From assembly GCA_951406725.2 (NCBI GenBank), contig OX597816.1, positions 130,944,001 to 131,008,000 on the forward strand: 64,000 bases of DNA, in the 5' to 3' direction. Below the pieces are notes generated by a model, which saw nothing but the letters and a program-made list of their open reading frames with translations, was not told the origin of the DNA and ran no database searches. The DNA comes from Octopus vulgaris. Its lineage: Eukaryota. The position numbers and the translations under genes were made by a program. Below, in pieces: positions 34,555-61,605 of the stretch; the first letter of the stretch is position 1; the number at the start of each line of letters is the position of its first letter.

Positions 34555-35814
34555 CTATCAGGTCATCCCATAAGTAATGTCCGGACGTCTATATTTTCAA
34601 TTTGTAAATGCTTTTAACAGTATTTTAGAATGTCTAATAGCATCAAGTGATATTTATATGTATTTGGACATATTTAAACTAAATAAATTTCATTTTGCAG
34701 GATAATCTAATTGAAATTTCACTAATTATAGTTCTTCAAACATGGAAGTGTCTAAGGAGCAGTTGAGGTACATAATACTTTATAAGTTTAAAAATGGGAA
34801 CTCTGCCGCTGAAGTGACTCAAAATATTGACTCAGTTTATGGAGAAGAGTGCCTGAAAGAAAGAATTTGTAGAAGATGGTTTCTAAAATTCAGAAGTGGA
34901 GATTTCAGCCTTAAAGATGAGGCCTAAACAAGACATCCAATTGAGTTTGATGTCAACCTCTTTTTGGCCGAACTCGAAAAAGAACATGCAGTTTCAGTTG
35001 AAAAATTGATAAGCAAGCTTCATTCAAGCCATCTTCAACAGTTTGGAAAGGTCCTAAAACTCGGAAAATGGGTGCCTCATGATTTGTCTGAAGCCAACCG
35101 TAAATCCTGAGTGGACATCTGCCCTTCTGTTCATTCTCGTGAACTCATATTGCCCTTTTTGGACAAACTTCTGATTGTTGATGAAAAATGGGTCTTTTAT
35201 CAAACCGTTAAATGTCATAGACATTGGCTTGGTGAAGAGGAACAGGCCCAGTCACAATCGAAATGGGAACTCCATGCAAAGAAGGTTCTTCTCTCTCTTT
35301 GCTGAGATTGCAAAGGAATCACTTATTTTAGTTGCTACCAACTAATGCAGCAATCAATGCTTAAATCTACTGTCAGCAATTAGAGTGTTTGATCACTGCT
35401 GTGAAGAAAAAAAGGCCTGCTTTAGTGAATCGAATGGAAGTAATGTTTTATCAGGAGAATGCAAGACCCCAGATTGCAAAGATCACGCTACAGAAGATCG
35501 AGAAAATTGCTCATCTGCCTTATTCCCCAGAACTTGTTCCTTCAGATTACCATTTGTTCCGTAGTTTACAGAATCATTTGGATGTATTAACTCTCAAAAC
35601 AACTGGGGAAATCGAAACTGACCTTTCAGAGTTCTTCTCTTCAAAACCAAAAGAGTTTTTCACTAATGGAATTATAAAGCTTTCGAGTAGATGAAAAGAT
35701 GTCATAGATAATCATAGAAGTAATATTGTTGATTAAGTTTCATTAAAATGTAAGATTTGATCACATGTTTTCGATATCTAAAATCCGGGCATTACTTATG
35801 GGATGATCTGATAT
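34555..35814 (+). mobile_element. Full-length mariner DNA transposon (inactive)
   Basis: 30-bp TIRs TATCAGGTCATCCCATAAGTAATGTCCGGA / TCCGGGCATTACTTATGGGATGATCTGATA, flanking TA, length about 1.26 kb. Confidence 0.95.
34742..35736 (+). pseudogene. Mariner transposase pseudogene (DD34D family)
   Basis: MEVSKEQLRYIILY..RRWFLKFRSGDFSLKDE..WVPHDL..DEKWV..QENARP..YSPELVPSDYHLF; several stops and frameshifts. Confidence 0.95.
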
Positions 35815-43600: not shown

Positions 43601-44044
43601 TTAAGTAATGAATAACAACAAGTGTTATTGGTGAAAAGATTCATCCTGATAGTGGAACCAAAATTAATTACAGTCTGAGATTTGAAGTTCTATCAGTTGA
43701 AACATACACACGCGCGCACATACATACATTCACACGCAGCCATTCGGGTACACGCATACACGCGCGTATACACACACACATATGCATATAGTGAGAGAGA
43801 GGGGAGAGAGAGAGAGAACAAAATTTTGAAGACAGTTCTATGATAAAAGTTTATGACAAAAACAGATGAAAAGTTATAAAAATCTTAAGTAGCATGAAAT
43901 TATTTAAATGTATTTTTTTAATTTTCAAACTGATTCATAGGTTGTAAGGAGATAACAAGAATCAGGATTACGAAACTGGCTTCGTTAATTATACAAACGA
44001 CGCAATCGTATTGTAATGGTTTTGTTAGTTTACAATCCTCAAAA

Positions 44045-44150
44045 AATCTTATCACATTTCACGATGACGTCATCCCAATTGCATTGTAATCACGTCATCG
44101 ATTAGTAAACAAACTTAGTATGATCCAAAAAGTGACGAAGTAAAAAGCCT
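44045..44150 (+). promoter_or_regulatory. Candidate proximal promoter: CRE, CCAAT, second bZIP site, FOX and GATA motifs
   Basis: GATGACGTCATC palindrome 44063-44074, CCAAT 44075, CACGTCATC 44091, GTAAACAAA 44105, CTTATC 44048; all within 170 bp of the ATG. Confidence 0.55.
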
Positions 44151-44212
44151 GCAACAAAAGTTATAGCCAATCTTTTTGAAAAAAGAAAGCCTTTGAAAAT
44201 CGAAAACTCGGA

Positions 44213-44482
44213 ATGAATTCACTTTTTGTAACCGTTTTGGTTTTACTTGCTGTTGTGACAGTGGCTTACGCTGATTGCAAAATGCGCGAAACGGAAACAT
44301 GCTGGGAAAAGGACAATTGCGATAAGGTTACATGTCTTCGTGCTATGGACTGCAAACTCACAAAGCCGTTAGAAGCGATTCAGTTCTTTTGCAACGCTGG
44401 CACAATTAGCCGAATCAGTTTCGTTACTCTGTTTTTTATAACCCTTTTACAACTGGCAAATCAGTTTGAACAATGTATATAA
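44213..44482 (+). CDS. Small secreted or GPI-anchored cysteine-rich protein, 89 aa, uncharacterised
   Basis: ATG start; signal peptide residues 1-20 ending A-Y-A; six Cys (22,30,36,41,47,60); omega-like N-A-G at 61-63; polar spacer; hydrophobic tail FVTLFFITLLQLA; non-repetitive sequence; AATAAA at 44726. Confidence 0.8.
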   Translation: MNSLFVTVLVLLAVVTVAYADCKMRETETCWEKDNCDKVTCLRAMDCKLTKPLEAIQFFCNAGTISRISFVTLFFITLLQLANQFEQCI

Positions 44483-44725
44483 TCTGATATTTCGAGTGAT
44501 TTTATAAAGCATACATAACCATTTCGTTTATAGCAAAATTTCAGCATAAAGATTTCTGTACATTTTTTTTTTCAAATATTCAATATAGTTTCGTGTGGAA
44601 TTTCTTGAGGCTTTTCGTTTACAAACACACAATCGCACGGAGACATGCGCGCGCGCGTACACAGACACAGACACACACACACACACAAACAAACAAATAT
44701 ACACACATGTATGTATATAATCTTT

Positions 44726-44731
44726 AATAAA
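44726..44731 (+). terminator. Candidate polyadenylation signal
   Basis: First AATAAA after the stop codon (about 245 nt downstream), immediately followed by ATTAAA. Confidence 0.4.
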
Positions 44732-44791: not shown

Positions 44792-44910
<119 letters not shown>

Positions 44911-45032
44911 GGAGCTTCTACAGGATAGAACTCTACTAGTCCTGTAAACTCCTTCTATAAAATAAATTAATTTACTCTGCTATGTATTGAGTACCTTATT
45001 TACTGTGGTTAACCCCGACTCAACCCGGGACC

Positions 45033-54206: not shown

Positions 54207-54776
54207 AGTAGTATCGGAGCTGTGAATTCTGAATGCAGAGAAGTAGCAGCTCGACCTGGAGACTGTCTCCGATCTCCAAGCTACTCACCTTGTTGAGTAA
54301 CGTTATTCCAGAGATCCTTCTAAGGAAAATCATTTCGTTTGTATTTGCGATCGTACTCCTTCGTTCACTACCCACATTCCATAACCATAAGTGAGGAGAA
54401 TAGGCACGAAAACTGATTTGAACAAATATAAAAATTTGTTTTTTTAATCAAACTTACCCTCTTTCGACGATCGAATATGGAATCTAGCGCATTACTGTAC
54501 CGGTACCTGCAATTCTAGCATACAATTCAGTTTCCTGCTTCCCACTACTTAAGACTATGACCCCGAAATACTTAAACTTTTTCTCCAGAGGACAAATCTC
54601 TCAATTTTTGCACCCTTAATTTTCATCCCTGCCATGCAGCACTCGGCAGCGAACTCCTTCAGTACATGCTGGAGATCATCTTCTGATGAACCAAGTTGCA
54701 CCATGTCGTCTGCAAATATCAGCCAACAGATCCTACACTCACTGATTGTGTTACCACTTCCACAGCAGTTATGCAT
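54207..54776 (-). pseudogene. RTE-clade (Expander/Rex3-like) reverse transcriptase fragment
   Basis: LIFADDMVQLGSSEDDLQHVLKEFAAEC..GMKI and EMIFLRRISGITLLNKVSSLEI..SQLR. Confidence 0.8.
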
Positions 54777-60347: not shown

Positions 60348-61605
60348 CAGATGTTGAACAAAATAGTGGAAACACCTTAAATTTTCAAACAAATTTATTT
60401 TGATATGGGGTAGGACCGCCTTTCACAGTAATTACAGCTTGAATTCTATGAGGTATGGGCTCGTACAAAGTTTGAATTGTTTCTAAGGCATATTTGTCCA
60501 TTCTTCAGCTAAAACAGTCTCCAGTTCTTGTAGTAGTGATGGTGGAGGATATCGCCTCCTTACTTGTTTTTCTAAAATGCACCATCAATGTTCAATAATA
60601 TTGAAATCTGGGGACTGTGGTGGCTAGATAACATGTTCAACTTCACTAGAATGTTCCTCGTGCCATTCAGTAACAACTTTAGCTGGGTGAATTGGTGCAT
60701 TATCATCTTGAAAGATTGCGTTTCCCTCCGGAAACAGTTCCGCAACCATAGGATGAATTTGATCAGATAAAATGCTTAAATAGTCTTCACTATTAATTCT
60801 GCCACGAAGGGAAACCACTGGGCCGGCGGATTTACACCCCAGATCATCATAGATCCTCCTACATGTTTAACAGTTGGAAGGAGGCAGTCTGGGTCGAATG
60901 CGTCTTTTGGCTGTCTCCACGTATACTTGTCCGGTGGTCAGAAATAAGGTAAAGGATGACTCGTCCGAGAAAATAACATTCTTTCACTGCTCTTGGGGCC
61001 AATTCTGTAGGTTTTTACTCCACTTGAAACGCTTTGCAACATTTGTTTTAGAAAGTAATGGTTTTCTGATTGCAGCCCTCCCGTGAAATCCAGCTTTGTG
61101 CAGCTTCCGGCGAACAGTTTCTGTGGAAACTGGGTTCTCGAGGTGGTCATTAAGCTCTGCAGTAATTTTGGGAGCTATACGTTTGTGATCCTTTCTAACA
61201 ATTCGCGTAAGGGTCCGACGGTCCCTTATCTGAAAGTTTTGGTTTTCGTCCAGAGTTTTGTTTCGACGAGGTGTTACCCCCTTTCTCAAAGGCTGTCATT
61301 ACTTTCGAAACAGTACTTCTTGATACACCAAGCATTTCGGCTGTTTTCGTTACGCTAGCGCCTACCCAAAGAACACCAACAATTTGACCTCTTTGAAAGT
61401 TCGATAGATCTGTCATTTTAATGAATTTTAATTACCTTTTTCTGATGATATCTGAAAAGAAACAGCAATTTTAGGAAAACTTATTAAGCCACACTAATAA
61501 TAAATCCAAAAACATAAAAATTACCAAGCTTTTGACGGTTTTATAGATATTTCAAAATTATGGTGTTATGATGCTAAGTGTTTCCATTATTTTGTCCAAC
61601 CCCTG
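60348..61605 (-). mobile_element. Full-length Tc1-family transposon (inactive)
   Basis: TIRs CAGATGTTGAACAAAATAGTGGAAACAC / GTGTTTCCATTATTTTGTCCAACCCCTG; TA on the left, TG on the right. Confidence 0.93.
60400..61416 (-). pseudogene. Tc1 transposase pseudogene (DD34E family)
   Basis: MTDLSNFQRGQIVG..GRKPKLS..GFHGRAAIRKPLL..VIFSDESSF..IFQDDNAPIH..PQSPDFNIIE..KGGPTPY; frameshifts and stops. Confidence 0.93.

What the first reader, a model, noticed from the sequence alone, without database searches (positions are those of the whole stretch)
44213..44482. Orphan mini-gene: signal peptide + 41-aa six-cysteine domain + GPI-type tail
Seen: the only convincing host ORF in 64 kb, with an uninterrupted CDS. 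Cys spacing is C-x7-C-x5-C-x4-C-x5-C-x12-C, ending CN-AG, then a spacer and a hydrophobic tail. Established: Ly6/uPAR proteins such as lynx1 and Quiver end in CN before a GPI signal but have 8-10 Cys, so this is not a standard three-finger domain. Inference: a very small three-disulfide membrane-tethered peptide of a family I do not recognise, possibly a receptor/channel modulator or recognition molecule. With the promoter cluster and decayed paralog, it is the best candidate for an undescribed system here.
Basis: partly seen in the sequence, partly recalled or inferred. Interest (0 to 1): 0.8.

Follow-up and report, generated by a model that had tools for sequence, protein, structure and literature searches.

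The report
Octopus retrogene for tethered surface mini-protein
This is an intact, conserved, intronless gene, likely an mRNA-derived copy of a four-exon gene elsewhere in the same (likely octopus) genome, that encodes a 41-residue six-cysteine protein of no described family, predicted to be lipid-anchored on the cell surface and likely acting there as a cAMP-inducible ligand or receptor modulator.

Summary
The ORF is real. Signal peptide, cysteine spacing 7-5-4-5-12, an N-A-G anchor-type site and a hydrophobic tail are as described. Contigs from 4 of 4 runs laid (three guessed RNA, one unrecorded) cover it unspliced with no coding indels. dN/dS is 0.10 and 0.14 against two diverged organisms, with all six domain cysteines kept. 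It is not a strict orphan: an uncharacterised Octopus bimaculoides protein is 35% identical, and the own genome holds a four-exon paralogue on another contig whose spliced form is colinear with it, so it is most likely a retrogene. Its 5' region carries the window's only three-site CRE cluster, is conserved, and shows no likeness to the parent's. It is not Ly6: the model is three helices and both paralogues end CS, not CN. The nearest named family is neuritin, as a lead only; the neuritin HMM does not match. Verdict: an undescribed small family of a known kind of protein; function untested.

The parts
44213..44482 (+). Intronless CDS, 89 aa
   Evidence: Translation; unspliced contigs without coding indels in 4 of 4 runs laid, one of which ends at 44469; dN/dS 0.10 and 0.14
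44213..44272 (+). Signal peptide, residues 1-20 (cleavage after A20 inferred by rule, no predictor run)
   Evidence: Hydropathy; same length and character in both paralogues
44238..44279 (+). Stretch that matches the parent gene across its exon 1/exon 2 junction (lost intron; retrocopy signature)
   Evidence: Score 60 against the spliced junction, 29 and 46 against the two unspliced sides
44273..44395 (+). Mature 41-aa domain, six Cys (7-5-4-5-12), predicted three helices; three disulfides inferred
   Evidence: Six Cys kept in both diverged runs and both paralogues; AlphaFold2 helices ending at 30, 35-44 and 50-61, block pLDDT 74-77 over residues 21-60 in the best of five models
44393..44401 (+). 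Predicted GPI attachment triad N61-A62-G63
   Evidence: Small-residue triad; S-A-G and S-T-G at the same place in the paralogues; rule recalled, no predictor available
44396..44479 (+). GPI-type C-terminal signal: spacer, 13-residue hydrophobic stretch, short polar end
   Evidence: 13-residue hydropathy 2.25; best 19-residue window 1.65; C88 not conserved
44065..44137 (.). Putative promoter: full CRE palindrome 44065-44072, CCAAT 44075, CRE half-sites 44093 and 44133, initiator-like TTAGT at 44102 and 44115
   Evidence: Only cluster of three CRE sites within 100 bp among 65 sites in the window; Poisson P 5e-4 for 150 nt before the ATG; motif meanings recalled
44119..44212 (+). 5' UTR (approximate start)
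   Evidence: Contigs begin at 44067, 44119, 44125, 44141; 1 listed change in 44067-44212 against 10 of 57 synonymous sites in run X5, P 1e-5
44483..44583 (+). 3' UTR, at least this long; first ~30 nt resemble the parent's 3' UTR; AATAAA at 44726
   Evidence: Contig ends 44558-44583; similarity p 0.012; motif scan
43924..44038 (-). Inverted, decayed copy of the 3' half of the CDS, head to head with the gene; no start codon, 9-nt deletion, anchor triad lost
   Evidence: tblastn E 9e-7; DNA score 72 vs shuffles 19 +/- 3, about 69% identity; frame translations

Best explanation
An intact, conserved intronless gene, likely a retrocopy of a four-exon paralogue on contig C6, encodes a precursor predicted to lose its signal peptide and tail and to be GPI-anchored at N61 as a 41-residue, three-helix, three-disulfide domain that likely binds a surface receptor or channel and is likely switched on through CREB. 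Shown: ORF, conservation, paralogues, loss of all three introns, CRE cluster. Suggested but not proven: transcription. Predicted: helical fold, GPI anchor. Inferred: retroposition, a newly gained promoter, divergence from the parent (33% identity) followed by constraint, and a role like that of neuritin or lynx-type proteins, which have no cytoplasmic part and act by binding another membrane protein. The partner and tissue are not identified.
For: Unspliced contigs over the gene in 4 of 4 runs laid, with indels only in the UTRs. Synonymous excess: 10 syn/4 nonsyn (P 7e-5) and 15/9 (P 9e-6). Parent on C6:29694685-29705404 has four GT-AG exons (40, 76, 71, 89 nt; phases 1, 2, 1), an intact 91-aa frame, 30 of 91 identities to this protein and 52 of 91 to P0003; its spliced DNA aligns with score 216 against a shuffle maximum of 141. 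Junction 1 matches only when spliced; the 3' UTR start is shared (p 0.012); the upstream regions show no likeness (p 0.83) and the parent has no CRE half-site in 600 nt upstream. Anchor triad and tail are kept in all three family members. Three-helix model. Conserved CRE-bearing 5' region.
Against: The runs' RNA status is a guess of the tool, no DNA run or distant silent stretch was laid, and contigs give no strand or level. No signal or GPI predictor was run; the tail has seven polar residues after the hydrophobic stretch and a 19-residue hydropathy of 1.65, borderline for a membrane helix. Junctions 2 and 3 give no DNA-level gain from splicing (14 vs 14/16; 22 vs 24/20), so there they rest on protein colinearity; no poly(A) or target-site duplication was identified. 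Only one of five models reached pLDDT 68; the domain alone gave 50. No tissue, partner or induction data. In run X11 the 5' conservation is weaker (P 0.003 to 0.09, depending on 7 unlisted differences).
Confidence: 0.55

Rival explanations
1. The family is a true but half-sized remote homologue of vertebrate neuritin/CPG15, not merely built like it.
For: Neuritin (PF15056) is the nearest named Atlas cluster for both P0001 and P0003 (0.76; 7 and 8 of the ten best named hits share the family). Same layout of leader, mature part and GPI signal (PMC10123642 supplement legend). Recalled, not checked: neuritin has six Cys, is helical, and has a phase-1 intron in the leader and a phase-2 intron just after the third Cys, as the C6 parent does.
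Against: 0.76 is far under the Atlas's 0.9 bar and P0001's recognition value (2137) is under 2300. No NRN1 match in Pfam scans or in the own genome. Mature neuritin is 88 aa (28-115) against 41. The CRE sites are absent from the parent, so they are not inherited evidence.
Confidence: 0.25
2. The domain works mainly after release from its anchor, as a soluble or skin/mucus signal, recognition or defence peptide, like attractin or ciliate pheromones (small helical three-disulfide proteins; recalled).
For: Size, six Cys and helical model fit that class. The parent and P0003 are only 57% identical, which would be fast evolution if they are orthologues. All four amino-acid changes in run X5 fall in residues 25-40.
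Against: No PDB sequence match at E 10 with the protein or the family profile. This gene is under strong purifying selection, net charge about -1, unlike typical cationic antimicrobial peptides (recalled). The tail is conserved in all members.
Confidence: 0.15
3. The tail is kept as a single transmembrane helix with a 7-residue cytoplasmic end; no GPI anchor.
For: Best 19-residue hydropathy 1.65 and 1.62 in P0001 and P0003; polar end after the hydrophobic stretch; the model shows a helix at 70-88.
Against: The hydrophobic core is 13 residues with a Gln inside; the 19-residue window includes Ser and Arg; a small-residue triad and spacer precede it in all three members; the end is not conserved (N83Y, C88R).
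Confidence: 0.12
4. It is a reduced Ly6/uPAR three-finger protein of the lynx1/Quiver type.
For: Signal peptide, Cys-rich domain, CN before a GPI-type tail.
Against: Six Cys; all-helical model; CS in both paralogues; no Pfam match.
Confidence: 0.02
5. It is a transcribed but non-functional retropseudogene or chance ORF.
For: Absent from the 15-billion-protein collection; sits among microsatellites and transposon fragments.
Against: dN/dS 0.10 and 0.14, Cys kept, indels only outside the CDS.
Confidence: 0.02

Closest known systems
Octopus bimaculoides uncharacterised protein UniRef100_A0A0L8GFZ5 (P0003)
   Same: 90 aa, same layout, six Cys spaced 7-6-4-5-12, small-residue triad and tail; 31 of 88 identical, E 3e-6 in a 1.84-billion library.
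   Different: Closer to the C6 parent (57%) than to this gene, so not its orthologue; no function or paper found.
Neuritin/CPG15 (NRN1, PF15056)
   Same: Small GPI-anchored protein without a cytoplasmic part; activity-regulated with two CRE-like promoter sites bound by CREB (PMC12715718 passage); nearest named Atlas cluster.
   Different: Mature part 88 vs 41 aa; no HMM match; Cys spacing much wider (recalled); CREs here are new to the retrocopy; no neural expression shown.
Ly6/uPAR three-finger modulators (lynx1, Quiver)
   Same: Signal peptide, Cys-rich domain, GPI-type tail.
   Different: 8-10 Cys and beta-sheet fold (recalled) against six Cys and predicted helices; CN not conserved in the family.
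Aplysia attractin and Euplotes Er pheromones (recalled)
   Same: About 40-60 aa, helical, three disulfides.
   Different: No sequence match in the PDB; not GPI-anchored (recalled); fold comparison inconclusive.
Unnamed mollusc clusters of 115 and 129 aa in the ESM Atlas
   Same: Best feature hits, 0.87-0.88 and 0.84.
   Different: Under the 0.9 bar, longer, no sequences available to align; a lead only.

Membership tests
Retrogene (processed, functional) | Intronless copy of an intron-bearing paralogue at an unlinked place | tested here: met
   Four-exon parent on C6, intronless copy on C3; colinear protein; junction 1 matched in DNA
Retrogene (processed, functional) | Homology limited to the mRNA; promoter not shared | tested here: met
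   3' UTR start p 0.012; upstream p 0.83; age alone could also erase upstream likeness
Retrogene (processed, functional) | Poly(A) remnant and target-site duplication | not tested
   None evident on reading; not searched by tool; expected to decay with age
Retrogene (processed, functional) | Purifying selection | tested here: met
   dN/dS 0.10 and 0.14
GPI-anchored protein | Signal peptide, small-residue triad, spacer, hydrophobic tail | tested here: met
   By rule in all three members; no trained predictor
GPI-anchored protein | Tail cleaved and anchor attached (PI-PLC release) | not testable with these tools
   Needs experiment
Neuritin (NRN1, PF15056) | Match to the NRN1 HMM above 27 bits | tested here: not met
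   No match for P0001, P0003 or the mature domain; none in the own genome
Neuritin (NRN1, PF15056) | Mature domain of about 88 residues | tested here: not met
   41 aa here; neuritin 28-115
Neuritin (NRN1, PF15056) | Shared fold and disulfide pattern | tested here: inconclusive
   Helical model; fold searches dominated by leader and tail helices; pairing not readable from the output
Neuritin (NRN1, PF15056) | Shared intron positions | not tested
   Parent phases 1, 2, 1; neuritin's structure only recalled; no exon data in the two reviews searched for it
Neuritin (NRN1, PF15056) | Activity-induced neuronal expression through CRE sites | not testable with these tools
   CRE cluster present and conserved; tissue and induction unknown
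Ly6/uPAR three-finger | 8-10 Cys with C-terminal CN motif | tested here: not met
   Six Cys; CS in both paralogues
Ly6/uPAR three-finger | Beta-sheet three-finger fold | tested here: inconclusive
   Model has only helices, but at moderate confidence
Attractin / Euplotes pheromones | Sequence or fold match to the solved structures | tested here: inconclusive
   No sequence match; not listed in fold searches, which do not exclude it

The most novel reading that the evidence does not exclude
Octopuses built an activity-induced, neuritin-like plasticity gene by retroposing a half-size member of an unrecognised mollusc neuritin-related family next to a newly gained CRE promoter; the 41-residue GPI-anchored product tunes synaptic or chemotactile receptors.
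Probability: 0.12. Interest if true: 0.8.

Novelty: new variant of a known kind. Interest (0 to 1): 0.45.

Why it matters
It is a conserved, apparently transcribed gene missing from a 15-billion-protein collection, and it defines a small family with an unusually short six-cysteine surface domain. It is also a clean case of a retrocopy that diverged about 65% from its parent, gained a conserved CRE-rich upstream region and was then held fixed. If it is neural and activity-induced it gives a testable candidate effector of plasticity in octopus and would bear on whether neuritin-type proteins exist outside vertebrates. Without tissue or partner data it remains one more uncharacterised small surface protein.

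Tried and rejected
Pfam: only HOCHOB at E 0.094, under its cut-off. PDB sequences: 0 matches with protein or profile. Word-index protein searches: none for P0001 (2 candidates), only P0003 itself for P0003 (13 candidates) and for the family profile (457 candidates); lengths 49-158 aa or less only. Of 3 phmmer hits, P0002 (algal PDZ-repeat protein) and P0004 (repeat protein) were dropped as summed repeat scores. Own-genome searches found no member beyond the gene, the inverted fragment and the C6 parent; three weak P0003 hits (E 2-9) were dropped after tblastn showed no Cys pattern or a repeat in the two that reappeared; some searches returned only the query's own place; these are lower bounds. 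No further paralogue in 364 kb around both loci. Single-sequence fold of the domain: pLDDT 50, not searched. Foldseek: no match under E 4.5; VIA-align: best Z 6.3, common helical bundles; Atlas structure search of P0003: TM under 0.5. Homodimer prediction: no verdict. No RNA holder is on record in the run list, and five further runs held none of the words: no evidence either way. No contig covered the inverted fragment: no evidence of silence. The idea that the CRE lies inside the decayed copy was rejected (p 0.44). The transcript has no unusual RNA fold (z 1.57); Rfam finds nothing in the window. Loose ends of run X17 were not found in the 364 kb and are unexplained. Earlier findings of the scan: none. 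Literature: ten searches listed no paper that by title or abstract start describes this gene or family; 'neuritin' with 'octopus' and the accession gave 0. Supplementary tables of octopus proteome and single-cell papers were not searched and may list it.

Full report
Observation. The ORF at 44213-44482 (+) translates to 89 residues with the stated layout: hydrophobic residues 1-20, six cysteines at 22, 30, 36, 41, 47, 60, the triad N61-A62-G63, a polar spacer, a 13-residue hydrophobic stretch and a short polar end with a seventh cysteine. The host is a 2.8-Gb genome in 227 contigs; that it is an octopus is inferred from its only true homologue being from Octopus bimaculoides. A filter for leader, polar Cys-rich middle and hydrophobic tail passed 1 of 456 ORFs in 364 kb, this one (the filter was written with the target in view).

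It is a working gene. Of 24 listed runs, 19 hold part of the stretch; none is on record as RNA. I laid 4 of them, from four organism labels, on 43820-44650. All four cover the gene unspliced, starting at 44067, 44119, 44125, 44141 and ending at 44469-44583; listed indels fall only at 44172, 44538 and 44563, outside the CDS. The assemblies are 19-68 million letters and stop near the gene's ends, which fits RNA, but the tool marks three as guessed RNA and one as unknown. Two runs are 99% or more identical; two are diverged. Their listed coding differences give 10 synonymous and 4 non-synonymous changes (dN/dS 0.10, Fisher P 7e-5) and 15 and 9 (0.14, P 9e-6). All 20 counted differences of X5 were listed; 7 of 40 of X11 were not, so the second figure is approximate. 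The six domain cysteines never change; C88 does.

It has a family. phmmer over 1.84 billion representatives gave 3 hits, of which one is genuine: P0003, an uncharacterised O. bimaculoides protein of 90 aa, 31 of 88 identical, cysteines spaced 7-6-4-5-12. Searching the own genome with P0003 gave 5 matches; the second led to contig C6, where four GT-AG exons of 40, 76, 71 and 89 nt spread over 10.7 kb form an intact 91-codon frame, cysteines spaced 7-7-4-5-12, 33% identical to the window protein and 57% to P0003. The window protein is not in the 15-billion collection, and a profile that includes the C6 exons retrieves only P0003.

It is most likely a retrogene. The window gene lacks all three introns, lies on another contig, and aligns with the spliced parent far above shuffles (216 against a maximum of 141). 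At junction 1 the DNA matches only the spliced form (60 against 29 and 46); junctions 2 and 3 are too diverged to tell in DNA but are colinear in protein; the first 30 or so bases after the stop are shared (p 0.012); the upstream regions are not (p 0.83). So the copy derives from mRNA (inferred), diverged strongly and is now constrained. P0003 groups with the parent; whether it is the parent's orthologue is open.

Upstream region. A full CRE palindrome (44065; 2 in the window), two half-sites and a CCAAT lie just before the contig starts; this is the only three-site cluster among 65 sites in the window (P 5e-4 for that position). In run X5, 44067-44212 has 1 listed change in 146 nt against 10 in 57 synonymous sites (P 1e-5); in X11 the contrast is weaker (P 0.003-0.09). 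The parent has no CRE half-site in 600 nt upstream. The meaning of these motifs is recalled; induction is untested. Head to head with the gene, at 44038-43924, lies an inverted copy of the 3' half of the CDS, about 69% identical, without start codon or anchor triad. Its extension over the promoter is not significant, and I found no sign that it does anything.

Structure and mechanism. AlphaFold2 on a six-row alignment gives three helices in the mature part with block pLDDT 74-77 in the best of five models (mean 68.5; the others 47-58); the domain alone gave 50. Fold searches were dominated by the leader and tail helices and are uninformative. The most likely course is ER entry, removal of leader and tail, GPI attachment at N61, and display of a compact three-disulfide domain. 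With no cytoplasmic part it must act by binding another surface protein in cis or trans, or after release (follows from how GPI proteins work). I put GPI anchoring at about 0.8, retrocopy at 0.9, and the whole reading including a CREB-driven modulator role at 0.55.

Comparison with what is known. It is not a Ly6/uPAR protein: six cysteines, a helical model, and CS rather than CN in both paralogues. By layout it is most like neuritin/CPG15, which is the nearest named Atlas cluster for both P0001 and P0003 (0.76, under the bar) and has CREB-bound CRE sites in its promoter (PMC12715718, passages seen). Membership is not met: no NRN1 HMM match, and mature neuritin is 88 residues (PMC10123642, passages and supplement legend seen; the alignment itself was not readable). 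My recollection that neuritin has a phase-2 intron just after its third cysteine, as the parent does, could not be checked: word look-ups in PMC12715718 and PMC13070893 found no 'exon', and PMC12877949 gave no structural passage. Other papers were seen only as search listings. The best Atlas hits are unnamed mollusc clusters (0.84-0.88), a lead that the family is wider.

Novelty and verdict. Ten literature searches listed nothing describing this gene or family; subscription papers and supplementary tables were outside their reach. It is a new variant of a known kind: a small GPI-type cysteine-rich surface protein with an undescribed half-size helical domain, born by retroposition. The gene is solid, the function is inferred. 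Interest 0.45; the boldest reading, an activity-induced neuritin-like plasticity gene of octopus, has about 0.12 probability and would merit 0.8.

Noticed in passing
G000:C6:29694685-29705404 (L011, L012, L005): Intact four-exon parent gene with a TATA-like element about 165 nt upstream; no close match in the protein collection; 57% identical to O. bimaculoides P0003, which would be unusually fast evolution if they are orthologues.
   Followed up: partly
window 44285-44332: All four amino-acid changes in run X5 lie in residues 25-40; residues 41-82 are unchanged in both diverged runs, which may mark the binding face or core.
   Followed up: no
window 44125 and 44558: Run X17 has 30-nt loose ends at both contig ends, without splice signals and not found in 364 kb around either locus; probably assembly chimeras.
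   Followed up: partly
window 61195-61416 (-), 54555-54776 (-), 35434-35694 (+): Transposon fragments: helix-turn-helix of Tc1 type, reverse transcriptase piece, and a mariner-like piece recognised by eye with no Pfam match at E 0.01.
   Followed up: partly
G000:C6:29669780-29673565 (-) and C3:131012653-131014617 (-): Long open frames (1262 and 655 codons) that look like LTR and LINE retroelement proteins by eye; the first lies about 21 kb upstream of the parent gene.
   Followed up: no
L007:1124-2056: Tandem repeat with a unit of about 187 nt on contig C21; a chance hit of P0003.
   Followed up: no
window 44900-44960: Short inverted repeat (arms of about 20 nt) between microsatellites downstream of the gene, seen on reading; possibly a small mobile element.
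   Followed up: no
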